Assembly: GCF_054482525.1 (NCBI RefSeq)
Contig: NZ_CM137006.1
Reading direction: 5' to 3' (one strand)
DNA: 64,000 bases
Position 1 is the first letter of the stretch; each line of letters opens with the position of its first letter. Below the pieces are notes generated by a model that was not told the origin of the DNA, made no database searches, and was given only the letters and a program-made list of their open reading frames with translations. Positions 15,956 through 43,176 of this stretch are shown piece after piece. The translations under genes and the position numbers were made by a program.

Positions 15956-16097
15956 AGAAAGTTATCCTGAAAATGGTTCACTGAGAACCTACGATGTTAT
16001 GGCTGTATTTACATTTAATTAATCAGTATTTACATCGATATAATAAATGACATCTCTTTGTGGTATATAAGAATAGTTCTCTGTGACAGGAAGCATA

Positions 16098-16115
16098 TTC
16101 CTACAATTGTAAGAC
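16098..16115. promoter_or_regulatory. EvgA-box-like 18-bp inverted repeat upstream of yfdX
   Basis: TTCCTACA-AT-TGTAAGAC; a second weaker copy at 16136-16153 (TAACTACA-AC-TGTAAGAT). Confidence 0.5.
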
Positions 16116-16250
16116 TAAAATACTTCTTGCGATAATAACTACAACTGTAAGATAACCCTTTCAAAATGAGCGTTGCTCTCTGATTTCTCATTTCATGCTC
16201 ACCCAATATGATGGCGGCGTTTTCTAAAACTGTTAAAGAATGAGGTAAGT

Positions 16251-16883
16251 ATGAAACGTTTAATTATGGCTACGATGGTCACAGCAGTTCTGGCATCTTC
16301 AACTGTATGGGCTGCTGATAATGCACCGGTAGCGGCACAACAGCAAACTCAGCAAGTTCAGCAAACCCAGAAAACGGCAGCAGCAGAGCGTATCTCTGAA
16401 CAAGGTTTATATGCGATGCGTGACGTGCAGGTAGCGCGCCTGGCTCTGTTTCATGGCGATCCGGAAAAGGCAAAAGAACTGACCAATGAAGCTTCAGCTT
16501 TGTTGTCAGATGACAGTACCGAATGGGCAAAGTTCGCTAAGCCAGGTAAAAAGACCAATGTCAATGATGACCAATATATTGTCATTAATGCATCTGTCGG
16601 AATTTCTGAGAGTTATGTAGCGACACCCGAAAAAGAAGCCGCGATAAAAATTGCCAACGAAAAAATGGCGAAAGGGGATAAAAAGGGCGCAATGGAAGAG
16701 CTGCGCCTGGCCGGTGTTGGCGTAATGGAAAACCAATATCTGATGCCGCTCAAACAGACTCGTAATGCACTTGCTGATGCGCAGAAACTGCTTGATAAAA
16801 AGCAATACTACGAGGCAAACCTGGCGCTTAAAGGTGCGGAAGATGGAATCATCGTCGATAGCGAAGCTCTGTTTGTGAACTAA
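16251..16883 (+). CDS. yfdX: YfdX periplasmic protein (EvgA-induced)
   Basis: 210 aa with signal peptide. Confidence 0.9.
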
Positions 16884-16939
16884 CGCTGACAGGCAGTATA
16901 TTGAGGTAAAGGATTTAACTCCCTCCAGCCGACAATTTT

Positions 16940-16972
16940 TTATGACCACAATACGACAGGTTGTGGTCATAA
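16940..16972 (+). terminator. Inverted repeat after yfdX (possible terminator)
   Basis: ttatgaccacaa / ttgtggtcataa 12-bp perfect arms; tail only weakly T-rich. Confidence 0.35.
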
Positions 16973-17126
16973 AATTATTTGGCGCTCGCGGTTCTATAAA
17001 CTCGCATTTTATCTTCCTCAAAGTAAACCGCAATAATCCCGTGTCATCACAAATCATTTATTATGTTATGTTTTATGGTACGCTTTAAAAGGCGTAATCA
17101 TACCCTTACTTGTAAATCACCGGCGC

Positions 17127-17144
17127 TTCTTACAGTTGTAAGAA
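17127..17144. promoter_or_regulatory. Perfect EvgA-box palindrome upstream of frc
   Basis: TTCTTACA-GT-TGTAAGAA, a perfect 18-bp inverted repeat about 250 bp upstream of the frc start. Confidence 0.6.
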
Positions 17145-17395
17145 TAACATCACAAATGTCGCGGCTCTCTCTGATTACCGCGAACCAATATTTATCATAT
17201 TCTTCTTTTCGTCCTCACTACTTACCATGCAGAAAGGAATTGGAAGTGGCGATGAAATGATTTTCAGCACTTGATACAGGAATTTAAAAATATCGAGTGC
17301 AGCTACGACGATATTTTGCGGATTATTTATAGAGGGCGTTATGCCTTAAATAAACGCTAAATTAACATATATTTAATTAACTAATAGGTATTGCT

Positions 17396-18646
17396 ATGTC
17401 AACTCCACTTCAAGGAATTAAAGTTCTCGATTTCACCGGTGTGCAATCTGGCCCATCTTGTACTCAAATGCTGGCCTGGTTTGGCGCTGACGTCATTAAA
17501 ATTGAACGTCCCGGCGTTGGTGACGTAACGCGTCACCAGCTGCGAGATATTCCTGATATCGATGCGCTTTACTTCACCATGCTTAACAGTAACAAACGTT
17601 CTATTGAATTAAATACCAAAACAGCGGAAGGCAAAGAGGTAATGGAAAAGCTGATCCGCGAAGCTGATATCTTAGTCGAGAACTTTCATCCTGGGGCCAT
17701 TGATCACATGGGCTTCACCTGGGAGCATATTCAAGAAATCAATCCACGTCTGATTTTTGGTTCGATCAAAGGGTTTGATGAGTGTTCGCCTTATGTGAAT
17801 GTAAAAGCCTATGAAAACGTTGCTCAGGCAGCGGGTGGCGCGGCATCCACTACGGGTTTTTGGGACGGTCCGCCGCTGGTAAGCGCTGCAGCGTTGGGTG
17901 ACAGCAACACCGGAATGCATTTACTGATCGGTTTACTTGCTGCTTTGCTGCATCGCGAAAAAACGGGGCGTGGGCAACGAGTCACCATGTCAATGCAGGA
18001 TGCCGTATTGAACCTTTGCCGCGTGAAATTACGCGACCAGCAGCGTCTCGATAAATTGGGTTATCTGGAAGAATACCCGCAGTATCCGAATGGCACATTT
18101 GGTGATGCAGTTCCCCGCGGAGGTAATGCGGGGGGTGGCGGTCAGCCTGGCTGGATCCTGAAATGTAAAGGCTGGGAAACCGATCCTAACGCCTATATTT
18201 ATTTCACTATTCAGGAGCAAAACTGGGAAAACACCTGTAAAGCCATCGGCAAACCAGATTGGATTACCGATCCGGCATACAGTACAGCCCATGCCCGACA
18301 GCCACATATTTTCGATATTTTTGCTGAAATCGAAAAATACACTGTCACTATTGATAAACATGAAGCGGTGGCCTATTTGACTCAGTTTGATATTCCTTGT
18401 GCACCGGTTTTAAGTATGAAAGAAATTTCACTTGATCCCTCTTTGCGCCAAAGTGGCAGTGTTGTTGAAGTGGAACAACCGTTGCGTGGAAAATATCTGA
18501 CAGTTGGTTGTCCAATGAAATTCTCTGCCTTTACGCCGGATATTAAAGCTGCGCCGCTATTAGGTGAACATACCGCTGCTGTATTGCAGGAGCTGGGTTA
18601 TAGCGACGATGAAATTGCTGCAATGAAGCAAAACCACGCCATCTGA
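17396..18646 (+). CDS. frc: Formyl-CoA:oxalate CoA-transferase
   Basis: 416 aa, family III CoA-transferase. Confidence 0.93.
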
Positions 18647-18699
18647 TATTAACGGGGGCTTCTGGCTCCCAATTTATAAAAATTTCGAGGTTATTAATC

Positions 18700-20394
18700 A
18701 TGTCAGATCAACTTCAAATGACAGATGGTATGCATATCATCGTTGAAGCATTAAAACAGAATAATATTGACACTATTTATGGTGTTGTAGGTATTCCTGT
18801 GACGGATATGGCACGCCATGCCCAGGCGGAAGGCATTCGTTATATTGGTTTTCGTCATGAGCAGTCGGCAGGCTATGCCGCTGCGGCAAGCGGTTTTCTT
18901 ACCCAAAAACCAGGGATCTGCCTGACAGTGTCTGCGCCAGGATTCCTCAATGGTTTGACCGCATTGGCCAACGCAACGGTAAATGGTTTTCCGATGATCA
19001 TGATTAGCGGCTCCAGCGACCGCGCGATCGTCGACCTACAGCAAGGTGATTATGAAGAGCTGGACCAAATGAATGCGGCAAAACCGTATGCCAAAGCAGC
19101 ATTCCGCGTTAATCAGCCGCAGGATCTTGGCATTGCATTGGCACGCGCTATCCGGGTCTCAGTATCGGGTCGCCCTGGCGGAGTTTATCTTGATTTACCA
19201 GCAAATGTCTTGGCCGCGACGATGGAAAAAGACGAAGCGTTAACCACGATTGTAAAAGTTGAAAATCCGTCGCCAGCATTATTGCCATGCCCGAAGTCAG
19301 TCACTAGCGCAATTTCGCTTTTAGCAAAAGCTGAACGTCCATTAGTTATCCTTGGCAAAGGTGCGGCGTATTCACAAGCTGATGAACAGCTTCGTGAATT
19401 TATTGAAAGTGCCCAGATTCCATTCCTGCCAATGTCTATGGCGAAAGGGATCCTGGAAGATACGCATCCACTTTCTGCGGCAGCTGCGCGTTCGTTTGCC
19501 CTGGCAAATGCTGACGTTGTCATGCTTGTTGGTGCACGACTGAATTGGTTACTGGCGCACGGTAAAAAAGGATGGGCGGCAGATACACAGTTTATTCAAC
19601 TGGATATTGAACCGCAGGAAATTGACAGCAACCGCCCCATTGCTGTGCCAGTCGTTGGCGATATTGCATCCAGTATGCAAGGTATGCTGGCAGAACTGAA
19701 ACAAAACACATTTACGACTCCACTGGTATGGCGCGATATTTTAAATATCCACAAGCAGCAAAATGCACAAAAAATGCATGAAAAATTAAGTACAGATACT
19801 CAACCATTAAATTACTTTAATGCATTAAGTGCTGTGCGCGATGTATTGCGCGAGAACCAGGATATTTATTTAGTTAATGAAGGTGCAAATACCCTGGATA
19901 ATGCACGAAATATTATTGATATGTATAAACCACGTCGCCGTCTGGATTGTGGTACCTGGGGTGTCATGGGCATCGGTATGGGCTATGCCATCGGTGCTAG
20001 CGTGACCTCTGGTTCTCCGGTTGTCGCCATTGAAGGTGATAGTGCTTTTGGTTTCAGTGGGATGGAGATTGAAACGATTTGTCGATATAACCTGCCGGTG
20101 ACGATCGTTATTTTTAATAATGGCGGCATTTACAGAGGAGACGGTGTTGATCTCAGTGGCGCTGGTGCACCATCACCAACGGATCTGCTGCACCATGCAA
20201 GGTATGACAAATTAATGGATGCGTTTCGTGGCGTTGGCTATAACGTCACTACGACAGATGAACTTCGTCATGCTTTAACCACCGGTATTCAGTCGCGCAA
20301 ACCGACCATTATTAATGTGGTCATCGACCCTGCAGCAGGAACTGAAAGTGGCCATATTACCAAACTTAACCCAAAACAAGTCGCTGGTAATTAA
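18700..20394 (+). CDS. oxc: Oxalyl-CoA decarboxylase (ThDP-dependent)
   Basis: 564 aa; ThDP-binding motif region GDSAFGFSGME...NNGG. Confidence 0.93.
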   Translation: MSDQLQMTDGMHIIVEALKQNNIDTIYGVVGIPVTDMARHAQAEGIRYIGFRHEQSAGYAAAASGFLTQKPGICLTVSAPGFLNGLTALANATVNGFPMIMISGSSDRAIVDLQQGDYEELDQMNAAKPYAKAAFRVNQPQDLGIALARAIRVSVSGRPGGVYLDLPANVLAATMEKDEALTTIVKVENPSPALLPCPKSVTSAISLLAKAERPLVILGKGAAYSQADEQLREFIESAQIPFLPMSMAKGILEDTHPLSAAAARSFALANADVVMLVGARLNWLLAHGKKGWAADTQFIQLDIEPQEIDSNRPIAVPVVGDIASSMQGMLAELKQNTFTTPLVWRDILNIHKQQNAQKMHEKLSTDTQPLNYFNALSAVRDVLRENQDIYLVNEGANTLDNARNIIDMYKPRRRLDCGTWGVMGIGMGYAIGASVTSGSPVVAIEGDSAFGFSGMEIETICRYNLPVTIVIFNNGGIYRGDGVDLSGAGAPSPTDLLHHARYDKLMDAFRGVGYNVTTTDELRHALTTGIQSRKPTIINVVIDPAAGTESGHITKLNPKQVAGN

Positions 20395-20463
20395 ATACTG
20401 ACATCGTCTCCTCTTGCCAACTCATTATGCGATGGTGAGGGGACCCTTATCGGAAATACTATT

Positions 20464-21408
20464 ATGCTAACATTTTTTATTGGCGATTTATTGCCTATTA
20501 TCGTAATCATGCTGTTGGGTTATTTTAGCGGCAGACGAGAAACTTTTTCAGAAGATCAAGCCCGGGCATTTAATAAACTGGTATTAAACTACGCTCTTCC
20601 TGCGGCTCTATTTGTATCTATTACCCGGGCAAACAGGGAAATGATTTTTGCGGACACTCGTCTGACCCTTGTATCACTTGTGGTTATTGTCGGATGTTTC
20701 TTTTTCTCCTGGTTCGGTTGCTACAAATTTTTTAAACGTACTCATGCAGAAGCAGCAGTATGTGCATTAATTGCAGGTTCACCTACCATTGGATTCCTGG
20801 GATTTGCAGTTCTCGATCCTATTTATGGTGATTCCGTATCAACAGGTTTAGTGGTAGCAATTATTTCAATTATCGTTAACGCAATTACTATTCCTATTGG
20901 TCTGTATTTGCTGAATCCCTCCTCAGGAGCGGATGGTAAGAAGAATAGTAATCTGAGCGCATTAATTTCTGCGGCAAAGGAGCCAGTAGTATGGGCACCT
21001 GTTCTGGCAACGATCCTGGTGTTGGTTGGGGTAAAAATTCCGGCAGCATGGGACCCAACCTTTAATCTGATTGCGAAGGCTAACTCAGGGGTGGCGGTAT
21101 TCGCTGCGGGGTTGACTCTGGCTGCACATAAATTCGAGTTCAGTGCCGAAATTGCTTATAACACCTTCCTGAAGCTGATTCTGATGCCACTGGCGCTGCT
21201 TCTCGTGGGTATGGCATGTCATTTGAACAGCGAACATCTGCAGATGATGGTACTGGCAGGCGCATTACCGCCGGCATTCTCCGGAATCATTATTGCCAGT
21301 CGGTTTAATGTCTACACCCGCACTGGTACAGCGTCATTGGCTGTGAGCGTACTGGGTTTTGTCGTCACGGCTCCCTTGTGGATTTATGTCAGTCGACTGG
21401 TTTCATAA
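20464..21408 (+). CDS. yfdV: AEC-family (auxin efflux carrier-like) transporter
   Basis: 314 aa polytopic membrane protein. Confidence 0.88.
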
Positions 21409-21436
21409 TTAATCATGTTATTGATTTTACATAAAT

Positions 21437-21467
21437 GCCGAAGTGTCTTTTCACCTTCGGCTTTTTT
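21437..21467 (+). terminator. Hairpin plus T-tract between yfdV and yfdE
   Basis: gccgaagtg / caccttcggc stem followed by tttttt, 15 bp before the yfdE ATG. Confidence 0.5.
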
Positions 21468-21481
21468 CAAGGCATAAGCAA

Positions 21482-22627
21482 ATGACAAATAATGAAAGCA
21501 AAGGGCCGTTTGAAGGCTTATTAGTTATCGATATGACACACGTCCTTAATGGACCTTTCGGAACTCAACTTCTTTGTAATATGGGCGCAAGGGTAATTAA
21601 AGTTGAGCCGCCGGGTCATGGTGATGATACCCGCACATTTGGTCCCTATGTGGATGGACAGTCACTCTATTACAGTTTTATTAATCATGGCAAAGAGAGT
21701 GTGGTTCTTGATTTAAAGAATGATCACGATAAAAGTATATTTATAAATATGCTTAAACAAGCTGATGTATTAGCTGAGAATTTTCGCCCAGGTACAATGG
21801 AAAAACTGGGGTTTTCATGGGAAACGCTACAAGAAATCAACCCGCGCCTCATCTATGCTTCATCGTCAGGTTTCGGACATACCGGCCCGCTAAAAGATGC
21901 TCCTGCCTACGATACCATCATTCAGGCAATGAGCGGGATAATGATGGAAACAGGGTACCCTGATGCTCCGCCAGTGCGTGTTGGTACCTCTCTTGCGGAT
22001 CTATGCGGCGGTGTCTATTTATTCAGTGGAATAGTGAGTGCACTTTATGGCCGCGAAAAGAGCCAGAGAGGGGCGCATGTCGATATAGCGATGTTTGATG
22101 CCACGCTGAGTTTTCTGGAGCATGGTCTGATGGCATATATTGCGACAGGGAAGTCACCACAACGCCTGGGAAATCGCCATCCCTACATGGCACCTTTTGA
22201 TGTTTTTGATACTCAGGATAAGCCGATTACTATTTGTTGTGGTAATGACAAGCTTTTTTCTGCGTTATGCCAGGCACTGGAGCTTACGGAACTGGTTAAT
22301 GATCCCCGATTTAGCAGCAATATTTTACGCGTACAAAACCAGGCTATTCTTAAACAATATATTGAGCGAACGTTAAAAACGCAGGCAGCTGAAGTTTGGT
22401 TAGCCAAAATACATGAAGTTGGTGTGCCCGTCGCGCCGTTATTAAGTGTGGCTGAGGCCATTAATTTGCCACAAACTCAGGCGAGAAATATGTTGATTGA
22501 AGCCGGGGGAATAATGATGCCAGGTAATCCGATAAAAATCAGCGGCTGGGCGGACCCGCATGTTATGCCGGGAGCGGCAACGCTCGACCAGCATGGGGAA
22601 CAAATTCGCCAGGAATTCTCATCGTAA
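21482..22627 (+). CDS. yfdE: Family III CoA-transferase (acetyl-CoA:oxalate CoA-transferase)
   Basis: Paralogous to Frc; likely start MTNNESKGPFEGL (381 aa), track ORF starts upstream at 21443. Confidence 0.88.
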   Translation: MTNNESKGPFEGLLVIDMTHVLNGPFGTQLLCNMGARVIKVEPPGHGDDTRTFGPYVDGQSLYYSFINHGKESVVLDLKNDHDKSIFINMLKQADVLAENFRPGTMEKLGFSWETLQEINPRLIYASSSGFGHTGPLKDAPAYDTIIQAMSGIMMETGYPDAPPVRVGTSLADLCGGVYLFSGIVSALYGREKSQRGAHVDIAMFDATLSFLEHGLMAYIATGKSPQRLGNRHPYMAPFDVFDTQDKPITICCGNDKLFSALCQALELTELVNDPRFSSNILRVQNQAILKQYIERTLKTQAAEVWLAKIHEVGVPVAPLLSVAEAINLPQTQARNMLIEAGGIMMPGNPIKISGWADPHVMPGAATLDQHGEQIRQEFSS

Positions 22628-22649
22628 ATTAAGATGTGCTGGTAAATAG

Positions 22650-22674
22650 CTCCCACATTTGAACATTGTGGGAG
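22650..22674. terminator. Hairpin between convergent yfdE and evgS
   Basis: ctcccaca / tgtgggag 8-bp stem with 9-nt loop. Confidence 0.45.
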
Positions 22675-22681
22675 CCGCAAT

Positions 22682-25600
22682 TTAGTCATTTTGTTGACAG
22701 AAAACAGCAATCTCCTGGTCCAGCTCTGCAATGTGTTCTTTAACAGAGTTCAGCAACTTAAGAATTTCAGGCTTACTGTCATCTGAAACAGGTGTTATTT
22801 CTAACTGATGGCTAATATTAATCAACTTTTGCAAATTCAGGATGTTAGCCGCACCGTGGATGCGATGAATACACTGATGGAAAATTCTGTTGTCGCCAGC
22901 TTCTAGTGCATGAAACGCAGCGGGTAGATCTTTATGCGTTTCATGCTGGAAAGTCATGAGAATCTCCTGCATCAGTTGTAGATCGTTCGCCGTATTATTT
23001 TTCAGGGCCTCGATATCAAGGTGGCGATACTGAGGTGCAATAGGCGCAACCTGGTGTAACTGACTTAAATGTGTTTTCAGTACATCCAGGGTCAACGGTT
23101 TGAACAAACATAAGTTCATGCCGCAATTTAACCCTTTTTCACGTTCGTTAGCCTGTGCGTTGGCTGTAAGCCCCCAGATGGGTAAGGAAGAATTTTGCTC
23201 ACGGAGTTTGCGAGTCAACTCAAAACCATCCATATTCGGCATATTAACGTCAGTAATAAGCAGATCATAATGTTGCATACTGACTTTGTGTAGCGCTTGC
23301 ACACCATCAGTGGCTTCATCAACATCATATCCTAATAGATTTAGCTGGCGTTTGAGTAATAGCCTGTTGGTCGGATGATCATCCGCGATTAATATGCTCA
23401 ACTTTTCAGGTAGTGTGATGGGTTGTTCTGCTTTTGCCTCGACAGCCGCCACTTGTTGGGTAATTTCTACCGGGATTGTGATCGTAAATGTTGTTCCTAT
23501 GCCTGGATGACTTTCTAATGACAAATCACCCTGCATGTTTTTAATTAATTCTTTGCAGATCATTAAGCCTAAACCAGAACCTGTTTGCTGACGACCTGCA
23601 CTTGTTTGGCTATAGCGTTTAAACAGTTGTTGTTGTTCTTCCTGTGATAATCCACTTCCAGAATCCATAATCGTCATTTTGATTACAGCGTGGTTGTCAT
23701 CAATGTTAACCAGGGAGGTCGTAATTTTTACTGCCCCCTCGGTGGTAAATTTGAGAGCATTGCTCAGTAAATTAGATAAGACCTGCTTAAACGCCTGAGG
23801 GTCGATCTTAACCAGGTAATGTTCAGGAAACGTACTGCTGCAACTTAATGCGATCGATTTGCTTGCAGCAATCGCACCGAAAGAGTGACAAGTGTTCTGG
23901 ACTAAAGTAGGGATATCGACCCATTGTGGTTGAAGTTGATAGTTACCCGATTCAATTTTGTCGACATCAAGGATTTCACCAATTAAGCCGAGGAGTGATT
24001 GTCCGGTGGCGTAGGCAAGTGAAATCGCCTCCACCCGTTGCTCCTTGCTAAGACCAGAACCCGACAGAAGTTCCAGGAAGCCCATAATGGAGCTTATTGG
24101 TGTTCTTATTTCGTGACTCATTGTTGCCAGAAACTGGCTTTTTGCGACAGTTGCATTGATCGCTTTATTTCTCTCTACTTCGAGTGCATGAATTAAATCA
24201 CGCGTCTCGGTAATATCTTGCCAACCACAAATATAAACAGCATGATCGCTGGCTGGCAGATTGCATAATGTATGCCAGTGATTAATGCATCTTTTCTCGA
24301 TGCCATTATCAATTTCAAATACCTGTGTGTATATTGTTCGATTTTCTTTCGTTTCTGCTGTGACTTCATGCGCATTAGAAAAAACATCTTTAAAGGGTGA
24401 GTCACTGTTTTCTAATGGTAACATTGCATTTTTGTAGTAATCCGCAGTGAAATAATGTTCAAAAGCACTATTATGACTAATGACATTACCTTGCCAGTTT
24501 ACAACATAAGTTGGATTCGGTAAGGAATCCGAGAGTGCTTTTCGGAATGATATTTGGTTTTCTAAATCACCCTGAATGACTTTACGACGACGAACTGAGC
24601 GTAACAGGTAGAATCCCCATAAAAGGCTACTGCCAACTAATAAAACGGATAATGTCGTGACAATATAAAATTGCTCGCTATAGAGGTCCCATGTGTCAAT
24701 GGTCACATTGGGCATTTTAATCCATTTTTCCGTCAGGCGCAGAACTTCGCTTGGGGGAATTGCATTCAGTACTTTATTAATAATATCCTTAAGTTCCGGT
24801 TCTCCGCGAGGAAAAGCGAACGAAAGCGATGCATTCGGAACGCCGGGAATAAGAAAATGATAAAGTTCATTAGGATAGTAATGGTCGATCATGTAACGTG
24901 AATTTAACTGTGTCGCGACCAGAGCATCAAGTTCGCCTTCCTTGACCTTGTGAAATGCAGCGCTGGCGTTATCGACTTTTATCCACTCTACCTCCGGATA
25001 CATCTCTTTTAATTGCGAATGAAGCTCATAATAATAGGGAATGGCAACTTTCATTCCTTTTTTTAATGTTTGTTCACTGTCAGGCGCTTTTTGCATGACA
25101 AAAACGTAAGGCGTTGTTATGAAGGCTTCAGCAAATAAAACATTATTTTCTCTATCTTCACTATAAATAGCGGCGGGCAATATATCCCATCCACCGGGGT
25201 TAAGCTGTGTCCCCGCATGAATATTGTGTGAAACGGTGATCGGAGAAAAATTTAAACCTGTTTGCAAGGTAATAATATTAAGAATATCACCCATCACGCC
25301 CCGAACTGAGCCAGTTTCATCTGTCATAGAATAGGGTGGCGAGTAAGGATTTTCCAGCACCTTTAAATCGGGATGCTGCTTAATCCACTGTTTTTCATGT
25401 TCAGTGAGTTCTAATGGTTTGTTCAGAAAGGCCAGGTTTCCTGTATCAAGCCAATTTTGTGATACTTCATAGCGAACTTCATTTGTTAAAGCATCAACAA
25501 ACCGATTGAGTACTTCATTAAGAACGACTGAATCTTTTCTGGTTAAGAAAAAGTTATATTGACGCGGCGAGTTATAATATTTCACTACATTTAAGGAGTG

Positions 25601-26275
25601 AGTGAAATAGCGGGAAATCATACTGCTGGTAATAATGTTACTACCAATAAAGTAATCATTCTGTCCGGCTGAGACGGATGCTAATGCCTGATATAAATTT
25701 GTAAAAGAGATAATTGTTGCTTTTGGAAATGATTGATGAATTACCTCGTCAGGGGGATAATTTGCTACTCGAGCAATATTTACTGGTTTTGATGAGGTAA
25801 GCGGTCGCATTGAATCGTGAAGGGTGGTGACGAGCGCCGGAAAGGTAATTATCAGTGGTTTGGTTGCAGCAATGTCATCATTAAGAGGCGGCGAAGCAAC
25901 TAAATGTGATAACACTATATCGACTTCACCTTCTTCCAGCGCGTCCATTGCTTTTTGATGATCGGCGTATTCCCGGAGTGTTAATTTGATATTTAACGCT
26001 CTTTTTAACAGATTTAAATAATCAGCATTAATACCACGAACCCGTTGCTGCGAATCGGTATGCAACAACGTAGCCGTTTGGGACTTGTGTACTGCAATCA
26101 CAAGATTTTTCTTGCTCGCTAACCAACGTAATTCCTTGTTGCTCAGACGTAGTGGATCAAGTGTGACACGGTTGTTACTACTGATGCCACGATATTCGAT
26201 GTAATCTTCGTCTGCGAAACTTATGGTCGACCAAAGACCACAACAGAGAAGAAAAATATAGGGTAAAAACTTCAT
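22682..26275 (-). CDS. evgS: Hybrid sensor histidine kinase EvgS
   Basis: 1197 aa; tandem periplasmic solute-binding domains, TM, HisKA/HATPase, receiver and HPt domains. Confidence 0.96.
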   Translation of the reverse strand: MKFLPYIFLLCCGLWSTISFADEDYIEYRGISSNNRVTLDPLRLSNKELRWLASKKNLVIAVHKSQTATLLHTDSQQRVRGINADYLNLLKRALNIKLTLREYADHQKAMDALEEGEVDIVLSHLVASPPLNDDIAATKPLIITFPALVTTLHDSMRPLTSSKPVNIARVANYPPDEVIHQSFPKATIISFTNLYQALASVSAGQNDYFIGSNIITSSMISRYFTHSLNVVKYYNSPRQYNFFLTRKDSVVLNEVLNRFVDALTNEVRYEVSQNWLDTGNLAFLNKPLELTEHEKQWIKQHPDLKVLENPYSPPYSMTDETGSVRGVMGDILNIITLQTGLNFSPITVSHNIHAGTQLNPGGWDILPAAIYSEDRENNVLFAEAFITTPYVFVMQKAPDSEQTLKKGMKVAIPYYYELHSQLKEMYPEVEWIKVDNASAAFHKVKEGELDALVATQLNSRYMIDHYYPNELYHFLIPGVPNASLSFAFPRGEPELKDIINKVLNAIPPSEVLRLTEKWIKMPNVTIDTWDLYSEQFYIVTTLSVLLVGSSLLWGFYLLRSVRRRKVIQGDLENQISFRKALSDSLPNPTYVVNWQGNVISHNSAFEHYFTADYYKNAMLPLENSDSPFKDVFSNAHEVTAETKENRTIYTQVFEIDNGIEKRCINHWHTLCNLPASDHAVYICGWQDITETRDLIHALEVERNKAINATVAKSQFLATMSHEIRTPISSIMGFLELLSGSGLSKEQRVEAISLAYATGQSLLGLIGEILDVDKIESGNYQLQPQWVDIPTLVQNTCHSFGAIAASKSIALSCSSTFPEHYLVKIDPQAFKQVLSNLLSNALKFTTEGAVKITTSLVNIDDNHAVIKMTIMDSGSGLSQEEQQQLFKRYSQTSAGRQQTGSGLGLMICKELIKNMQGDLSLESHPGIGTTFTITIPVEITQQVAAVEAKAEQPITLPEKLSILIADDHPTNRLLLKRQLNLLGYDVDEATDGVQALHKVSMQHYDLLITDVNMPNMDGFELTRKLREQNSSLPIWGLTANAQANEREKGLNCGMNLCLFKPLTLDVLKTHLSQLHQVAPIAPQYRHLDIEALKNNTANDLQLMQEILMTFQHETHKDLPAAFHALEAGDNRIFHQCIHRIHGAANILNLQKLINISHQLEITPVSDDSKPEILKLLNSVKEHIAELDQEIAVFCQQND

Positions 26276-26279
26276 GTGG

Positions 26280-26894
26280 TTAGCCGATTTTGTTACGTTG
26301 TGCGAATGTGTAAAGATCCATCAGTGATTTACATTCTAATTTTTCCATCAGGCGACTTTTATAAGTGCTGACAGTTTTGTTGCTGATGAACATTTTTTCA
26401 GCAATGTCATTATTATCCTTGCCATCAAGAATATACCGCATGACACTAATTTCTTGTTTCGATAAGGAGTCGAGTTTTTGCTGGTCGGACGTTAAACTTC
26501 CAACAAACCGGTTGAGAGAGAAGGGGAAATAGCAGTAGCCATTTTTTGCAGCTTCAATAGCTGCAATGATATTGTTCATGCCTTCTTTTTTACTCACGAA
26601 ACCATTAGCGCCAGCATCAGCACAATGTTTCCCGTAAAAATGGTCATTTTTAGCGGAGACAATAATAATAATTCCGCTATATTGGCGCTTTCTCAGCGTT
26701 TCTAACACCTGGATACCGTTAACTCCGGGGATATCGACATCAATGATGACGATATCAGGCTTAAGTGTTTCCACCCGCTGAACGGCGCTTCCGCCTTCAG
26801 TCAACTCCGCTAAGATTTCAATATCGTTTTTGATCAATAAATTACGAATTGCTGCGATAGCAAGAGGATGGTCATCAATAATTATTGCGTTCAT
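26280..26894 (-). CDS. evgA: Response regulator EvgA (NarL/FixJ family)
   Basis: 204 aa; receiver domain plus LuxR-type HTH. Confidence 0.96.
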   Translation of the reverse strand: MNAIIIDDHPLAIAAIRNLLIKNDIEILAELTEGGSAVQRVETLKPDIVIIDVDIPGVNGIQVLETLRKRQYSGIIIIVSAKNDHFYGKHCADAGANGFVSKKEGMNNIIAAIEAAKNGYCYFPFSLNRFVGSLTSDQQKLDSLSKQEISVMRYILDGKDNNDIAEKMFISNKTVSTYKSRLMEKLECKSLMDLYTFAQRNKIG

Positions 26895-27118
26895 AGATTA
26901 TTCCCTTTGCAATGAAGCATTTCCCTTCTCCCTGTAGTAATACAGACATAAGGCATCATCTCATTTTCTCAATAAAAATAAGAAAATTTGAGCTTCCTTT
27001 AAGATAATTCGACAAGTATACCATATAAATAGTCGGCATAAATGAAATGTCAACAATAAAATCAGGGATTGTACCGATGATTTATAGTTTCACATTAGCA
27101 CTATAAGTCTTCTCACTA

Positions 27119-27136
27119 ATCCTACAGGCGTAAGAA
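27119..27136. promoter_or_regulatory. EvgA-box-like inverted repeat in the evgA-emrK divergent region
   Basis: ATCCTACA-GG-CGTAAGAA, one mismatch per half-site relative to the frc palindrome. Confidence 0.5.
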
Positions 27137-27309
27137 TTGTATTGCAAAAGCTACGGTTTAGTCCTCTGTTGTTTTTTTTGCACCTCATTTAAATTAGGCC
27201 TCCAACGTTCCTGGGACAATGTGCAACACATGCACTGTGTTTGATATGAAGAATGAATACTCTTTTCATTCAATTCATAAATTTCATCTATGCGAAATGA
27301 GAGATAATA

Positions 27310-28473
27310 GTGGAACAGATTAATTCAAATAAAAAACATTCTAACAGAAGAAAATACTTTTCTTTATTGGCGGTAGTTTTATTTATTGCGTTTTCAGGTG
27401 CCTATGCCTATTGGTCAATGGAATTAGAAGACATGATTAGTACAGATGATGCCTATGTCACGGGGAATGCAGATCCAATTTCTGCACAAGTTTCAGGCAG
27501 CGTCACTGTCGTTAATCATAAAGATACGAACTACGTTCGACAGGGTGACATTTTAGTCTCACTGGATAAGACTGATGCCACTATCGCACTCAATAAAGCT
27601 AAAAATAATCTGGCAAATATTGTTCGGCAAACGAATAAACTGTACTTACAGGATAAACAATACAGTGCCGAAGTCGCTTCAGCACGTATTCAGTATCAAC
27701 AATCTTTAGAAGATTATAACCGTCGTGTGCCTTTAGCGAAGCAGGGGGTTATCTCAAAAGAAACGCTGGAGCATACCAAAGATACGTTAATAAGTAGCAA
27801 AGCGGCATTGAATGCCGCTATCCAGGCTTATAAAGCGAATAAAGCTTTAGTAATGAACACACCATTAAACCGTCAGCCACAAGTCGTTGAAGCTGCGGAT
27901 GCAACCAAAGAAGCCTGGTTGGCGCTTAAACGTACGGATATTAAGAGTCCGGTTACCGGCTATATTGCCCAGCGAAGTGTTCAGGTCGGCGAAACAGTGA
28001 GTCCCGGACAATCGTTAATGGCTGTCGTACCGGCACGTCAAATGTGGGTTAATGCTAACTTTAAAGAAACACAACTCACGGATGTACGGATTGGTCAATC
28101 GGTCAATATTATCAGCGATCTTTATGGTGAAAATGTTGTGTTTCATGGTCGGGTGACAGGGATCAATATGGGAACCGGCAATGCGTTCTCCTTATTACCT
28201 GCACAAAATGCGACAGGGAACTGGATCAAAATCGTTCAGCGTGTCCCGGTTGAAGTTTCTCTTGATCCAAAAGAACTCATGGAACATCCCTTGCGCATTG
28301 GTTTATCGATGACTGCAACTATTGATACCAGGAACGAAGACATTGCCGAGATGCCCGATCTGGCTTCAACCGTGACGTCCATGCCTGCTTATACCAGTAA
28401 GGCTTTAGTTATCGATACTACTCCGATAGAAAAAGAAATTAGCAACATTATTTCGCATAATGGACAACTTTAA
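27310..28473 (+). CDS. emrK: Multidrug efflux membrane fusion protein
   Basis: 387 aa, EmrA-like; GTG start at 27310. Confidence 0.93.
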   Translation: MEQINSNKKHSNRRKYFSLLAVVLFIAFSGAYAYWSMELEDMISTDDAYVTGNADPISAQVSGSVTVVNHKDTNYVRQGDILVSLDKTDATIALNKAKNNLANIVRQTNKLYLQDKQYSAEVASARIQYQQSLEDYNRRVPLAKQGVISKETLEHTKDTLISSKAALNAAIQAYKANKALVMNTPLNRQPQVVEAADATKEAWLALKRTDIKSPVTGYIAQRSVQVGETVSPGQSLMAVVPARQMWVNANFKETQLTDVRIGQSVNIISDLYGENVVFHGRVTGINMGTGNAFSLLPAQNATGNWIKIVQRVPVEVSLDPKELMEHPLRIGLSMTATIDTRNEDIAEMPDLASTVTSMPAYTSKALVIDTTPIEKEISNIISHNGQL

Positions 28474-30011
28474 TGGCAATCACTAAATCAACTCCGGCAC
28501 CATTAACCGGTGGGACGTTATGGTGCGTTACTATTGCATTGTCATTAGCGACGTTTATGCAAATGTTGGATTCCACTATTTCTAACGTCGCAATACCGAC
28601 AATATCTGGCTTTCTGGGAGCATCAACAGACGAAGGCACCTGGGTTATCACCTCGTTTGGCGTAGCAAATGCCATTGCGATCCCTGTTACCGGCAGGCTG
28701 GCACAAAGAATAGGCGAATTAAGGTTATTTTTACTTTCAGTCACTTTTTTTTCGCTGTCTTCCTTAATGTGTAGTTTATCGACCAATCTTGATGTGCTGA
28801 TATTTTTTAGAGTCGTTCAGGGATTAATGGCGGGGCCGTTAATTCCACTGTCACAGAGTTTATTATTAAGGAATTATCCACCAGAAAAAAGAACATTTGC
28901 TCTGGCATTATGGTCAATGACCGTAATTATCGCTCCGATATGTGGGCCGATATTGGGTGGCTACATTTGCGATAACTTTAGCTGGGGTTGGATATTTTTA
29001 ATCAATGTCCCAATGGGGATTATCGTCCTGACATTATGCTTAACCTTACTTAAAGGAAGAGAAACTGAGACTTCACCGGTCAAAATGAATCTACCAGGAC
29101 TGACCCTGTTAGTGCTCGGTGTTGGTGGCTTGCAAATTATGCTTGATAAAGGGCGCGATCTGGATTGGTTCAACTCGAGTACAATAATAATATTAACAGT
29201 AGTATCAGTTATTTCTCTGATCTCTTTAGTCATTTGGGAGTCGACCTCAGAGAATCCGATTCTTGATCTCAGTTTGTTTAAGTCCCGTAACTTCACCATT
29301 GGTATTGTGAGTATCACATGCGCGTATTTATTTTACTCTGGAGCGATAGTCCTTATGCCGCAGTTACTCCAGGAAACAATGGGGTATAATGCGATTTGGG
29401 CCGGGCTTGCTTATGCGCCCATCGGCATCATGCCACTATTAATTTCACCTTTGATAGGACGTTATGGCAACAAAATAGATATGCGGTTGTTAGTGACATT
29501 TAGTTTTTTGATGTATGCGGTTTGCTATTACTGGCGTTCTGTGACATTTATGCCAACGATTGATTTTACAGGCATCATTTTGCCACAGTTTTTTCAGGGA
29601 TTCGCCGTCGCCTGTTTCTTTTTACCCTTAACAACGATTTCGTTTTCAGGTTTGCCAGATAATAAATTTGCCAATGCCTCGAGTATGAGTAATTTTTTTC
29701 GTACCTTGTCAGGATCAGTTGGTACGTCGTTGACAATGACGCTGTGGGGACGCCGAGAATCATTACACCATAGTCAGTTGACAGCAACAATCGATCAATT
29801 TAACCCCGTGTTTAATTCATCGTCACAAATTATGGATAAATATTATGGTTCGCTTTCAGGGGTTCTTAATGAAATTAATAATGAAATAACTCAGCAGTCA
29901 CTTTCAATTTCTGCAAATGAGATTTTCCGTATGGCGGCTATTGCTTTTATCTTACTTACGGTATTGGTTTGGTTTGCGAAACCGCCGTTTACAGCGAAAG
30001 GTGTTGGGTGA
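28473..30011 (+). CDS. emrY: MFS multidrug efflux pump (14 TM, EmrB-like)
   Basis: 512 aa; start overlaps emrK stop. Confidence 0.93.
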   Translation: MAITKSTPAPLTGGTLWCVTIALSLATFMQMLDSTISNVAIPTISGFLGASTDEGTWVITSFGVANAIAIPVTGRLAQRIGELRLFLLSVTFFSLSSLMCSLSTNLDVLIFFRVVQGLMAGPLIPLSQSLLLRNYPPEKRTFALALWSMTVIIAPICGPILGGYICDNFSWGWIFLINVPMGIIVLTLCLTLLKGRETETSPVKMNLPGLTLLVLGVGGLQIMLDKGRDLDWFNSSTIIILTVVSVISLISLVIWESTSENPILDLSLFKSRNFTIGIVSITCAYLFYSGAIVLMPQLLQETMGYNAIWAGLAYAPIGIMPLLISPLIGRYGNKIDMRLLVTFSFLMYAVCYYWRSVTFMPTIDFTGIILPQFFQGFAVACFFLPLTTISFSGLPDNKFANASSMSNFFRTLSGSVGTSLTMTLWGRRESLHHSQLTATIDQFNPVFNSSSQIMDKYYGSLSGVLNEINNEITQQSLSISANEIFRMAAIAFILLTVLVWFAKPPFTAKGVG

Positions 30012-30119: not shown

Positions 30120-31448
30120 TTAGCGGCCTTTTGCCAGATATTGCTCCATCTCTTCTTCCGGCACCATTCCACCTCCCGTCGCCCACACCAGATGAGTGGC
30201 ATTACGCAGTTGTTCTGCGCTGAAACCGTGCATCTGTTGGTAACTTACTGATGCGCACACGCGCTGAGGCCCGGCCATACCCGCCAGTGCCGAAGGTTCA
30301 AGACGAATGCCTTCTTCCTGCGCCAGCCAGCCAAGCATGTCATACATGGTTTGATCGCTAAGGGTATAGAAGCCATCCAGCAGACGCTCCATTGCCCGCC
30401 CGACAAAGCCTGATGCGCGACCAACTGCAAGGCCATCCGCTGCGGTAAGGTTGTCGATACCAATATCCTGAACAGAAATCTGATCGTGTAATCCAGTATG
30501 GACGCCTAACAACATACAAGGGGAGTGCGTTGGTTCGGCAAAAAAGCAGTGAACATGATCGCCAAACGCCAGTTTAAGTCCGAATGCGACGCCACCAGGA
30601 CCACCGCCAACACCACACGGCAGATAGACAAACAGAGGGTTATCAGCATCGACGATACGACCTTGCTCGGCAAATTGCGCTTTAAGACGCTGGCCAGCGA
30701 CGGAATACCCAAGGAACAACGTGCGGGAATTCTCGTCATCAATAAAGAAACAGTTCGGGTCAGACTGCGCTGCTTTACGTCCTTCCTCGACGGCAACACC
30801 ATAATCTTGCTCATATTCCACGACCGTAACGCCATGGCTGCGCAGTTTCGCTTTTTTCCATGCCCGGGCATCAGCAGACATATGCACTGTCACCTTAAAG
30901 CCAATGCGGGCGCTCATTATGCCGATTGATAACCCCAGATTTCCGGTTGAGCCCACAGCAATGCTGTATTGACTAAAGAACTGTTTAAACTCCGGAGACA
31001 GCAGTTTGCTGTAGTCATCTTCAGGCGTCAGCAACCCCGCTTCCAGAGCCAGTTTTTCTGCGTGTGCCAGGACTTCATAAATCCCGCCGCGTGCTTTTAT
31101 GGAGCCGGAAATGGGCAAATGGCTATCTTTTTTCAGTAACAGTTGCCCGCTGATCGGTTGTTGATATTCCTTTTCCAGCCGTTTTTGCATAGCTGGAATG
31201 GCAACCAGTTCTGATTCAATAATCCCCCCAGTAGCAGCAGTTTCAGGAAATGCTTTTGCCAGATAGGGTGCAAAACGGGATAAGCGCGCATGGGCGTCCT
31301 GAACATCCTGTTCGGTCAGGCCAACATAAGGTAAACCTTCAGCCAATGAGGTCGTGCCAGGATTAAACCAGGTGGTTTCTTTAAGAGCAACCAGATCCTT
31401 TACCAACGGATACTGGGCGATGAGCGAGTTCATTTTAGCGTTTTCCAT
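30120..31448 (-). CDS. dsdA: D-serine dehydratase (PLP-dependent)
   Basis: 442 aa, full length. Confidence 0.95.
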
Positions 31449-31465
31449 AGTACGTCTCTTTGCGC

Positions 31466-31696
31466 TTAGATGATAAATGACAGCAGGAATGTGCCCGCCA
31501 GAGCGACGACTGAAGCGATAAATGTCGCTGTCGTATAGTATTTAAATGTTTCATTGAGCGTAGCGCCGCAATATTGCTTCGCCAGCCAGAAAAGCGAGTC
31601 CGTAACGATCGTGCAGCCAATTGCACCTGAACCGATAGCAATCGTAAAAATTTCCGGGCTGATGTCGGGATACAGCGCCAGCACAATGATCCATAT
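31466..31696 (-). pseudogene. dsdX: 3' remnant of dsdX (GntP-family D-serine permease), truncated at the csc island junction
   Basis: Only about 75 C-terminal codons of a permease-like frame remain, ending 18 bp before dsdA; the frame hits a stop upstream at about 31697, and no dsdC follows. Confidence 0.7.
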
Positions 31697-31926
31697 TTAT
31701 ATTTTCTTCTCCAGATTGGCGATGCCAGTTGGCATGTTTTACCTACTTGCCTACATGGTTACTCGTTGGCGAGAACAGAGGCGGAATTGGGTACAATTGT
31801 CCGGGAATTATTGTTATTTTTTATTGTATTGCCGTGTCGGGTTATAGGGCGTTGAGAATATCGTTGGATCTCGCCAGTGACGTCTGTTTCTGCTACAGTG
31901 CCCGTTTTACGGCAAACGGCTTGGGT

Positions 31927-32922
31927 ATGGCTTCATTAAAGGATGTCGCACGCCTGGCGGGAGTGTCGATGATGACAGTCTCCCGGGTGATGCATAATGC
32001 AGAATCTGTGCGTCCTGCAACGCGTGACCGCGTATTGCAGGCAATCCAGACCCTGAATTATGTTCCTGATCTTTCCGCCCGTAAGATGCGCGCTCAAGGA
32101 CGTAAGCCGTCGACTCTCGCCGTGCTGGCGCAGGACACTGCTACCACTCCTTTCTCTGTTGATATTCTGCTTGCCATTGAGCAAACCGCCAGCGAGTTCG
32201 GCTGGAATAGTTTTTTAATCAATATTTTTTCTGAAGATGACGCTGTCCGCGCGGCACGTCAGCTGCTTGCCCACCGTCCGGATGGCATTATCTATACTAC
32301 AATGGGGCTGCGACATATCACGCTGCCTGAGTCTCTGTATGGTGAAAATATTGTATTGGCGAACTGTGTGGCGGATGACCCAGCGTTACCCAGTTATATC
32401 CCTGATGATTACACTGCACAATATGAATCAACACAGCATTTGCTCGCGGCGGGCTATCGTCAACCGTTATGCTTCTGGCTACCGGAAAGTGCGTTGGCAA
32501 CAGGGTATCGTCGGCAGGGATTTGAGCAGGCCTGGCGTGATGCTGGACGAGATCTGGCTGAGGTGAAACAATTTCACATGGCAACAGGTGATGATCACTA
32601 CACCGATCTCGCAAGTTTACTCAATGACCACTTCAAATCTGGCAAACCAGATTTTGATGTTCTGATATGTGGTAACGATCGCGCAGCCTTTGTCGCTTAT
32701 CAGGTTCTCCTGGCGAAGGGGGTACGTATCCCGCAGGATGTCGCCGTAATGGGCTTTGATAATCTGGTTGGCGTCGGGCATCTGTTTTTACCGCCGCTGA
32801 CCACAATTCAGCTTCCACATGACATTATCGGGCGGGAAGCTGCATTGCATATTATTGAAGGTCGTGAAGGGGGAAGAGTGACGCGGATCCCTTGCCCGCT
32901 GTTGATCCGTTGTTCCACCTGA
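31927..32922 (+). CDS. cscR: LacI-family sucrose repressor
   Basis: 331 aa from MASLKDVARLAGVSMMTVSRV (HTH); track ORF extends 66 codons upstream. Confidence 0.9.
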   Translation: MASLKDVARLAGVSMMTVSRVMHNAESVRPATRDRVLQAIQTLNYVPDLSARKMRAQGRKPSTLAVLAQDTATTPFSVDILLAIEQTASEFGWNSFLINIFSEDDAVRAARQLLAHRPDGIIYTTMGLRHITLPESLYGENIVLANCVADDPALPSYIPDDYTAQYESTQHLLAAGYRQPLCFWLPESALATGYRRQGFEQAWRDAGRDLAEVKQFHMATGDDHYTDLASLLNDHFKSGKPDFDVLICGNDRAAFVAYQVLLAKGVRIPQDVAVMGFDNLVGVGHLFLPPLTTIQLPHDIIGREAALHIIEGREGGRVTRIPCPLLIRCST

Positions 32923-32929
32923 TATTATG

Positions 32930-43159: not shown

Positions 43160-43176
43160 TTCCTCTCGGGTACGTA

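What the first reader, a model, noticed from the sequence alone, without database searches (positions are those of the whole stretch)
16098..27136. Cluster of EvgA-box-like inverted repeats, including a perfect palindrome upstream of frc
Four 18-bp sites of the form TTCYTACA-NN-TGTARGAA are visible: upstream of yfdX (16098-16115 and 16136-16153), a perfect palindrome TTCTTACAGTTGTAAGAA upstream of frc (17127-17144), and one in the evgA-emrK divergent region (27119-27136). Recurrence of the same motif in front of three transcription units flanking evgAS suggests direct control of the oxalate/CoA-transferase genes and emrKY by EvgA in this strain. The frc site is about 250 bp upstream of the ATG, implying a long 5' UTR or a distal activation site.
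Basis: partly seen in the sequence, partly recalled or inferred. Interest (0 to 1): 0.4.

Follow-up and report, generated by a model that had tools for sequence, protein, structure and literature searches.

The report
Known EvgA boxes around evgAS
The four inverted repeats are real, but they are the already published binding sites of the acid-response regulator EvgA in front of yfdX, frc-oxc-yfdVE and emrKY, identical to those of E. coli K-12, so the finding is correct but ordinary.

Summary
The window is an E. coli chromosome segment, 100% identical to strain PCN033 over the 1.6 kb compared, carrying ypdI | yfdX | frc-oxc-yfdV-yfdE | evgS-evgA | emrKY. All four sites sit at the stated coordinates. 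Only the frc site fits TTCYTACA-NN-TGTARGAA exactly; the others have 1, 3 and 2 mismatches.

The sites are not chance. A weight matrix trained only on three K-12 EvgA sites outside the window (safA, ydeP, yegR) ranks them 1-4 of about 64,000 positions. Across eight Escherichia sequences the 16 specified box positions vary 3/64 times, against 20.7% for other intergenic positions; the central NN varies 4/8.

All four sites are base-for-base identical in K-12 MG1655, and EvgA protein is 204/204 identical. The frc box with 16 downstream bases is exact in 5,337 of 5,426 complete E. coli genomes. Papers read here state that EvgA binds the yfdX, frc and emrK promoters, citing Kato 2000, Masuda & Church 2003 and Itou 2009.

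Aligning six EvgA promoters on the box shows a -10-like hexamer 52-54 bp past the box end. The 178-nt ydeP leader used in one paper is consistent with this, putting the box centre near -74. By analogy frc has a leader of about 187 nt rather than a distal activation site.

Verdict: already known, low interest.

The parts
16098..16115 (.). yfdX upstream EvgA box 1 (TTCCTACAATTGTAAGAC), distal, strong match
   Evidence: 1 mismatch; PWM 15.1 bits, rank 3; only spacer position 10 varies among 8 strains; identical in K-12. It lacks the downstream geometry shared by the other promoters, so it is probably an auxiliary upstream site (inference).
16136..16153 (.). yfdX EvgA box 2 (TAACTACAACTGTAAGAT), weak match but at the canonical promoter distance
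   Evidence: 3 mismatches; PWM 12.4 bits, rank 4; varies only at the NN spacer and at position 2 in the divergent L006; shares CA at +9/+10, TC at +26/+27 and a -10-like hexamer at +54..+59 with the other EvgA promoters.
16207..16212 (+). predicted yfdX -10 hexamer TATGAT (TSS predicted near 16219)
   Evidence: The promoter scan found TTCTCA-16-TATGAT at 16185-16212; invariant in 8 strains. Position inferred, not mapped.
16251..16883 (+). yfdX coding sequence
   Evidence: RefSeq annotation of the identical PCN033 region.
16938..16974 (+). intrinsic-terminator-like hairpin after yfdX, separating yfdX from the frc unit
   Evidence: 15-pair stem followed by a T-rich tail; conserved in all strains.
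17127..17144 (.). frc EvgA box (TTCTTACAGTTGTAAGAA), perfect 8-bp arms
   Evidence: Exact match; PWM 22.1 bits, rank 1; only spacer position 10 varies, in L006; identical in K-12; box plus 16 nt is exact in 5,337 of 5,426 genomes.
17196..17201 (+). predicted frc -10 hexamer CATATT, overlapping TATCAT at 17193-17198 (TSS predicted near 17209-17210)
   Evidence: It lies at +52..+57 after the box end, against +53/54..+58/59 in the other five promoters. The C/T polymorphism at 17196 improves either hexamer. Inferred, not mapped.
17209..17395 (+). predicted frc 5' leader of about 187 nt
   Evidence: Geometry by analogy with ydeP. No Rfam family match. Fold z-score -2.2. The 5' part, about 17190-17262, is nearly invariant even in L006.
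17396..22627 (+). frc-oxc-yfdV-yfdE operon (frc 17396-18646, oxc 18700-20394, yfdV 20464-21408, yfdE 21482-22627)
   Evidence: Annotation; EvgA-dependent induction in K-12 (PMC4283999, PMC3720670).
22682..26275 (-). evgS sensor kinase
   Evidence: Annotation; 28 substitutions against K-12, 97.7% identity.
26280..26894 (-). evgA response regulator, with the 9-codon leader ORF evgL at 26891-26920
   Evidence: Annotation; EvgA is 204/204 identical to K-12; evgL read from the sequence and from PMC11210196.
27119..27136 (.). EvgA box in the evgA-emrK divergent region (ATCCTACAGGCGTAAGAA)
   Evidence: 2 mismatches; PWM 19.2 bits, rank 2; identical in K-12. In the divergent L006 both mismatches are changed to the consensus, giving TTCCTACAGGTGTAAGAA. 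Its geometry fits the emrK side. It lies about 110-120 bp upstream of the reported evgA starts (inference).
27190..27195 (+). predicted emrK -10 hexamer TAAATT (TSS predicted near 27202)
   Evidence: At +54..+59 after the box end, as in the other EvgA promoters. Inferred.
27310..30011 (+). emrK-emrY efflux pump genes
   Evidence: Annotation; direct EvgA regulation in K-12 (Kato 2000, as cited in PMC9496106 and PMC5706723).

Best explanation
The four repeats are the operator sites (EvgA boxes) of the EvgS/EvgA acid-sensing phosphorelay, which is encoded between them.

From established knowledge: mild acidity activates EvgS, which phosphorylates EvgA, a NarL/FixJ-type regulator.

Inferred here: an EvgA dimer binds the 18-bp inverted repeat, one monomer per TTCYTACA half-site, with the central NN uncontacted. 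The box is centred about 74 bp upstream of the transcription start and activates weak sigma-70 promoters. These drive yfdX (start near 16219), frc-oxc-yfdV-yfdE (start near 17209, leader about 187 nt) and emrKY (start near 27202). The emrK box also lies about 110-120 bp upstream of the evgA promoters and may serve autoregulation.

At yfdX the weaker box 2 occupies the canonical activating position, and the stronger box 1, 38 bp further upstream, probably helps occupancy.

Shown here: presence of the sites, their specificity, their conservation, their identity with K-12, and the shared spacing. Taken from papers: EvgA binding and EvgA-dependent induction. Inferred only: the start sites and the roles of the two yfdX boxes.
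For: - Sites are at the stated positions.
- An independent PWM from the K-12 safA, ydeP and yegR sites ranks them 1-4 in the window.
- Specified box positions vary 3/64 against 234/1130 for other intergenic positions (Fisher p = 4e-4), while the NN spacer varies 4/8. Two of the three changes move the emrK box towards the consensus.
- Sites are identical in K-12, and EvgA is 204/204 identical.
- The frc box plus flank is exact in 5,337 of 5,426 genomes.
- The frc-oxc-yfdV clusters of Moellerella and Providencia, which have no evgAS within 10 kb, lack any box.
- Literature: PMC3720670, PMC4283999, PMC8147483, PMC9496106, PMC5706723.
- Shared geometry: a -10-like hexamer starting at +52 to +54 after the box end in six promoters, and 11 columns at least 5/6 identical within +1..+70, against a mean of 2.8 and a maximum of 10 in 5,000 shift controls.
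- The 178-nt ydeP leader probe in PMC11210196, if it starts at the transcription start, puts that start at +66 after the box end.
Against: - No binding or expression data exist for this strain.
- The primary papers (Kato 2000, Masuda & Church 2003, Itou 2009) could not be read here, so I could not check which of the two yfdX boxes, or which exact bases, they report.
- Box 2 at yfdX is a weak match: 3 mismatches and 12.4 bits, a score reached on average 0.6 times per simulated 64-kb sequence.
- The start sites are predicted, not mapped, and the promoter scan did not call the frc promoter.
- The safA/ydeP and frc/yfdX promoters look paralogous, so the six aligned promoters are fewer than six independent observations.
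- EvgS differs from K-12 at 28 residues, and natural EvgS variants differ in acid responsiveness (PMC5706723). Inducibility in this strain is therefore untested.
Confidence: 0.93

Rival explanations
1. The frc box is a distal, enhancer-like activation site. The frc promoter lies close to the ATG, the leader is short, and EvgA acts over about 200 bp by looping.
For: The box is 252 bp from the ATG. The promoter scan did not flag a canonical promoter just downstream of the box.
Against: The same scan found no + strand promoter-like site anywhere between 17145 and 17396. The frc box has the same offsets to CA (+9/+10), TC (+26/+27) and a -10-like hexamer (+52..+57) as five other EvgA promoters. 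The ydeP box is equally far from its ATG (252.5 bp), and the ydeP leader probe in PMC11210196 spans 178 nt upstream of the ATG.
Confidence: 0.07
2. The repeats are bound mainly by another NarL/FixJ-family regulator with similar half-sites, such as RcsB, which binds the yfdX promoter in Klebsiella, rather than by EvgA.
For: RcsB binds PyfdX in K. pneumoniae (PMC6394985). One 2-mismatch match to the degenerate RcsB pattern overlaps the left half of yfdX box 1, at 16090-16103.
Against: The RcsB pattern is uninformative in this window: 58 matches against 44 expected. The motif that ranks these sites first was trained on EvgA-regulon promoters only. Papers report EvgA binding and EvgA-dependent induction of these promoters.
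Confidence: 0.03
3. The matches are chance A+T-rich inverted repeats in intergenic DNA, or RNA hairpins, with no regulatory role.
For: Intergenic DNA is A+T-rich. With 3 mismatches allowed, 0.68 matches per window are expected, and 1 of 100 shuffles gave 4.
Against: They hold ranks 1-4 with an independent PWM. All four fall in 1.9% of the window. Variation is confined to the uncontacted NN spacer. The frc allele is nearly fixed in 5,426 genomes. A 2-nt loop cannot close an RNA hairpin (established knowledge of hairpin sterics).
Confidence: 0.01

Closest known systems
EvgA box of the E. coli K-12 EvgS/EvgA regulon (Masuda & Church 2003; Kato et al. 2000; Itou et al. 2009, as cited in PMC3720670, PMC8147483, PMC9496106)
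   Same: Same genes, same 18-bp inverted repeat, base-for-base identical sites, identical EvgA protein, and the same motif as at safA, ydeP and yegR.
   Different: Nothing in cis. The strain differs from K-12 only in trans: 28 EvgS substitutions, which may change acid inducibility (PMC5706723).
BvgA-activated promoters of Bordetella (Pfha, Pptx)
   Same: BvgA is described as similar to EvgA in PMC9496106. A high-affinity inverted repeat lies well upstream of the core promoter. From my own knowledge, the BvgA heptad is TTTCCTA, which resembles the EvgA half-site TTCYTA. BvgA binds as head-to-head dimers on one helical face (PMC7250471).
   Different: BvgA promoters carry arrays of 3-6 dimers at 22-bp spacing, with the last one abutting -35. 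Here only one full box per promoter is recognisable (two at yfdX, 38 bp apart, not 22 or 44). Downstream there are only short conserved patches, CA at a 20-bp offset and TC at a 42-bp offset from the corresponding bases of the distal half-site. Multi-dimer binding by EvgA is not shown.
frc-oxc-yfdV oxalate clusters of Morganellaceae (Moellerella wisconsensis, Providencia stuartii)
   Same: Orthologous frc (86% identity), oxc and yfdV in the same order.
   Different: No yfdX, evgAS or emrKY within 10 kb. A second frc paralogue stands where yfdE is. There is no EvgA box: at up to 3 mismatches there is one match unrelated to frc in Moellerella and none in Providencia. Among the loci recovered here, EvgA control of frc is confined to Escherichia.

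Membership tests
EvgA box (operator of the EvgS/EvgA regulon) | 18-bp inverted repeat TTCYTACA-N2-TGTARGAA | tested here: met
   0, 1, 2 and 3 mismatches at the four sites. They are the top four scores of a PWM trained on the safA, ydeP and yegR sites only. The 3-mismatch site (yfdX box 2) is marginal on sequence alone.
EvgA box (operator of the EvgS/EvgA regulon) | Located upstream of genes induced by EvgA | tested here: met
   The sites lie in the ypdI-yfdX, yfdX-frc and evgA-emrK intergenic regions. Induction of frc, oxc, yfdX and emrKY by EvgS/EvgA is reported in PMC4283999, PMC3720670 and PMC5706723.
EvgA box (operator of the EvgS/EvgA regulon) | Same sequence as the sites for which EvgA binding was reported in K-12 | tested here: met
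   All four 18-mers are identical in MG1655. The primary binding papers were not readable here, so the exact footprinted bases were not compared.
EvgA box (operator of the EvgS/EvgA regulon) | Cognate regulator present with unchanged DNA-binding domain | tested here: met
   evgA is intact and 204/204 identical to K-12.
EvgA box (operator of the EvgS/EvgA regulon) | Selective constraint on contacted positions but not on the spacer | tested here: met
   3/64 specified positions vary, against 4/8 spacer positions and 20.7% of other intergenic positions.
EvgA box (operator of the EvgS/EvgA regulon) | Binding of phosphorylated EvgA and EvgA-dependent transcription in this strain | not testable with these tools
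   Needs EMSA or footprinting and reporter or RNA assays.
BvgA-type multi-dimer activator array | Several head-to-head dimer sites at about 22-bp centre spacing, with the promoter-proximal one abutting -35 | tested here: inconclusive
   There is one full box per promoter. The yfdX boxes are 38 bp apart. Conserved CA at +9/+10 and TC at +26/+27 after the box end lie 20 bp and 42 bp downstream of the corresponding bases of the distal half-site, but no full secondary inverted repeat is present.

The most novel reading that the evidence does not exclude
EvgA-dependent promoters share more than the 18-bp box. They have a fixed architecture: the box centre near -74; invariant CA 9-10 bp and TC 26-27 bp past the box end, the latter resembling the TCYTA core of a third half-site four helical turns from the distal one; and a weak -35. 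This would fit BvgA-like spreading of further EvgA dimers, or a fixed contact with RNA polymerase. At yfdX the poorly matching box 2 would be the activating site and the near-consensus box 1 a helper. I could not check whether Itou et al. 2009 already describe this.
Probability: 0.25. Interest if true: 0.3.

Novelty: already known. Interest (0 to 1): 0.1.

Why it matters
It matters little as a discovery. The link from EvgA to yfdX, frc-oxc (the proton-consuming oxalate / formyl-CoA cycle) and the EmrKY pump is established E. coli K-12 biology, and this strain carries the species-standard sites and an identical EvgA.

It is useful as a positive control for the scan, since a reader without tools recovered a real regulon motif. 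It also serves as annotation: the cis side of the EvgA regulon is intact here, so any difference in acid induction in this strain would have to come from its 28 EvgS substitutions.

The by-products are modest, testable refinements: the predicted frc start near 17209 with a leader of about 187 nt, and the idea that yfdX box 2 is the canonical activating position.

Tried and rejected
- Reading the primary papers (Masuda & Church 2002, PMC151933; Fontenot 2013, PMC3624534; Ma 2004, PMC523220). None is held, so the claim of prior knowledge rests on secondary citations in open-access papers.
- Looking for a 3-mismatch EvgA box upstream of gadE in K-12. The only match in that 10-kb stretch lies inside mdtE and is probably chance, so gadE was left out of the training set.
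- A search for related frc loci in other Escherichia species. The scan returned one divergent 'E. coli' (L006), two Morganellaceae, and otherwise Burkholderiales, actinobacteria and other phyla.
- An Rfam scan for a riboswitch or leader RNA upstream of frc found nothing; the only hit in the window is a tRNA. The leader fold is only mildly better than shuffles, z = -2.2.
- A small ORF in the frc leader (17228-17275, MQKGIGSGDEMIFST). It has no Shine-Dalgarno sequence, and in L006 its 3' half diverges with amino-acid changes and a shifted stop, so I did not treat it as a gene.
- An RcsB-box scan was uninformative: 58 matches against 44 expected.
- Box 1 as the activating yfdX site. It lacks the downstream offsets shared by the other promoters.
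- A three-dimer BvgA-like model. The third dimer would be centred near -31 and would clash with the -35 region, so it is kept only as a low-probability reading.
Full report
WHAT THE WINDOW IS

The region around the finding is 100% identical to the chromosome of E. coli PCN033 and 95-100% identical to 5,419 records of complete E. coli genomes. The RefSeq annotation of the identical stretch gives this order: ypdI (-), yfdX (+), frc-oxc-yfdV-yfdE (+), evgS-evgA (-), emrK-emrY (+). Window coordinate equals L001 coordinate plus 1899.

CHECKING THE OBSERVATION

All four 18-mers are at the stated coordinates. The others deviate:
- yfdX box 1, 16098-16115, TTCCTACAATTGTAAGAC: 1 mismatch.
- evgA-emrK box, 27119-27136, ATCCTACAGGCGTAAGAA: 2 mismatches.
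- yfdX box 2, 16136-16153, TAACTACAACTGTAAGAT: 3 mismatches.

The frc site has perfect 8-bp arms, but its central GT is not self-complementary, so it is not a strict palindrome.

IS IT MORE THAN CHANCE?

- With up to three mismatches these four are the only matches in 64 kb. The expectation is 0.68, and 1 of 100 shuffles reached four.
I built a symmetrised weight matrix from them and scanned the window.
- The four sites took ranks 1-4, at 22.1, 19.2, 15.1 and 12.4 bits; the next position scored 10.5. In 200 simulated sequences a mean of 0.6, and at most 3, positions reached 12.4 bits.
- All four lie in the three intergenic regions beside evgAS, which make up 1.9% of the window.

CONSERVATION

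I aligned the three intergenic regions from eight sequences:
- the window;
- K-12;
- O157:H7, which lacks the emrK region within the fetched stretch;
- SMS-3-5;
- an ST95 strain;
- 2014C-3075;
- GN02350;
- L006, a divergent lineage labelled E. coli whose EvgS is only 90.7% identical.

The 16 specified positions of the four boxes vary in 3 of 64 columns. Other intergenic columns vary in 234 of 1,130 (20.7%; Fisher p = 4e-4). The central NN varies in 4 of 8 columns. Two of the three changes at specified positions are in the emrK box of L006 and convert both of its mismatches to the consensus, giving TTCCTACAGGTGTAAGAA. This is the pattern expected for a dimeric regulator that reads the two arms but not the spacer.

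NOTHING IS STRAIN-SPECIFIC

- All four 18-mers are identical in K-12 MG1655.
- EvgA is 204/204 identical to the K-12 protein.
- The frc box plus 16 downstream bases is exact in 5,337 of 5,426 complete E. coli genomes.
- The emrK box with its flanks is found in 5,038 genomes. It is exact in 2,317 records; most of the rest fall in the 95-99% identity band, about one mismatch in 37 bases. The flank is polymorphic in the eight-strain alignment.
- The strain differs from K-12 in EvgS at 28 residues, 97.7% identity. PMC5706723 reports that natural EvgS variants differ in acid responsiveness while EvgA is invariant.

OUTSIDE ESCHERICHIA

The closest frc genes recovered outside E. coli are in Moellerella wisconsensis and Providencia stuartii, at 86% identity. 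They sit in frc-oxc-yfdV-frc2 clusters with no yfdX, evgAS or emrKY within 10 kb and no EvgA box. PMC9496106 states that EvgS/EvgA is confined to E. coli and Shigella. Among the loci recovered here, the box-frc link therefore appears only in Escherichia, alongside the regulator.

WHAT IS ALREADY PUBLISHED

- PMC3720670 (Fig. [quoted passage not shown] - PMC5706723 uses PyfdX as a reporter 'directly activated by phosphorylated EvgA' and PemrK as directly regulated, citing Kato 2000. PMC9496106 says the same for emrKY.
- PMC4283999 finds frc and oxc among the most induced genes in evgS-constitutive mutants, and an EvgA site in all directly regulated genes.
- The primary papers were not available to me.

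HOW IT MOST LIKELY WORKS, AND THE 250-BP QUESTION

I oriented six EvgA promoters towards their genes and aligned them on the box: yfdX box 2, frc, emrK, safA, ydeP and yegR.

All six have a -10-like hexamer that starts 52-54 bp after the box end:

| Promoter | Hexamer |
|---|---|
| yfdX | TATGAT |
| frc | CATATT |
| emrK | TAAATT |
| safA | TGtTATATT |
| ydeP | TGtTAATTT |
| yegR | TATTAT |

They also share:
- invariant CA at +9/+10;
- invariant TC at +26/+27;
- invariant T at +31;
- the better-matching half-site on the promoter-proximal side in most cases.

Eleven columns within +1..+70 are at least 5/6 identical, against a mean of 2.8 and a maximum of 10 in 5,000 shifted controls. One caveat applies: the safA/ydeP and frc/yfdX promoters look paralogous, so these are fewer than six independent observations.

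PMC11210196 used a ydeP 5' leader probe running from -178 relative to the ATG. If that probe begins at the transcription start, the start is +66 after the box end and the box centre is at -74.5, which fits the shared geometry.

By analogy, the predictions for the window are:

| Gene | Predicted start | Leader |
|---|---|---|
| frc | about 17209-17210 | about 187 nt |
| emrK | about 27202 | about 108 nt |
| yfdX | about 16219 | about 32 nt |

- The ydeP box is likewise 252 bp from its ATG, so the long distance at frc is normal for this regulon.
- At yfdX it is the weak box 2 that holds the canonical position. The strong box 1, 38 bp upstream, lacks the downstream offsets and is probably auxiliary.
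- A terminator-like hairpin at 16938-16974 separates yfdX from frc. This agrees with two transcription units, each with its own box.
- For evgA, PMC11210196 gives the evgL ATG at +89 and a leader probe from -124. That puts the starts near 27008-27018, so the shared box lies about 110-120 bp upstream. The same paper notes that evgA shows little acid response despite reported autoregulation.

COMPARISON WITH THE CLOSEST SYSTEM

BvgA of Bordetella, which PMC9496106 describes as similar to EvgA, binds as head-to-head dimers spaced 22 bp apart on one face of the helix. A high-affinity inverted repeat lies furthest upstream and the last dimer abuts the -35 region (PMC7250471).

The EvgA promoters resemble this in having a distal high-affinity inverted repeat. 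I found no full secondary repeats, only the short conserved patches noted above. Multi-dimer binding by EvgA therefore remains a low-probability reading that has not been excluded.

RIVALS

- Chance is excluded by the tests above.
- An RNA hairpin is impossible with a 2-nt loop.
- A different NarL-family regulator such as RcsB, which binds PyfdX in Klebsiella (PMC6394985), has no specific support. The RcsB pattern gives 58 matches against 44 expected.

VERDICT

The content is textbook K-12 regulon biology that holds across the species. Novelty: already known. Interest: low.

Noticed in passing
window 16154-16212, 17145-17201, 27137-27195; L003 and L004 (K-12 safA, ydeP, yegR promoters): Beyond the 18-bp box, six EvgA-dependent promoters share fixed offsets: CA at +9/+10, TC at +26/+27, T at +31, and a -10-like hexamer starting at +52 to +54 after the box end. 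Eleven columns are at least 5/6 identical, against a mean of 2.8 in shift controls. The TCYTA patch resembles a third half-site 42 bp from the distal one.
   Followed up: partly
window 16098-16153: At yfdX the near-consensus box 1 is not at the canonical distance from the -10 hexamer; the 3-mismatch box 2 is. The two box centres are 38 bp apart, which is not a multiple of a helical turn.
   Followed up: partly
window 17190-17262: The first 50 nt or so of the predicted frc leader are almost invariant, even in the divergent L006. They contain two GGA motifs (AAGGAAUUGGAAG) in a predicted hairpin loop, the kind of motif CsrA binds. CsrA is known to act on the EvgA circuit (PMC11210196), but frc was not examined there.
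   Followed up: no
window 17228-17275: A 15-codon ORF (MQKGIGSGDEMIFST) in the frc leader. It has no Shine-Dalgarno sequence, and its 3' half is not conserved as protein in L006, so it is probably not a gene.
   Followed up: partly
window 30120-37330 (L091 26673-33881): Between dsdA and the tRNA-Arg gene (37257-37328, - strand) lies a sucrose-utilisation cluster: cscA, a LacI-family regulator, a kinase and an MFS transporter. It sits next to a truncated dsdX pseudogene, and no dsdC is annotated, so it appears to replace dsdC-dsdX. A DUF4942 gene fragment lies beside the tRNA.
   Followed up: no
window 42650-44793 (L091 17208-19351): fadJ is annotated as frameshifted in the identical PCN033 record.
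   Followed up: no
L086 16986-23031 (E. coli O157:H7 PV15-279): In this O157:H7 strain yfdE, the last gene of the EvgA-controlled frc operon, is split by ISEc8/IS66-family insertions.
   Followed up: no
L006 (NZ_JAATUR010000016.1, labelled E. coli SCPM-O-B-8794): This genome has the same yfdX-frc-evgAS-emrKY layout, but its EvgS is only 90.7% identical to the window's. For comparison, the Clade I strain in PMC5706723 is 95.5% identical to MG1655, so L006 may belong to a cryptic Escherichia clade. All four EvgA boxes are kept, and its emrK box is a perfect consensus.
   Followed up: partly
L007 14390-15628, L008 14157-15395: The Morganellaceae oxalate clusters carry a second frc paralogue (about 74-89% identical to E. 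coli Frc) at the position where E. coli has yfdE. In Providencia stuartii it aligns in three pieces in different frames, so it may be disrupted.
   Followed up: no
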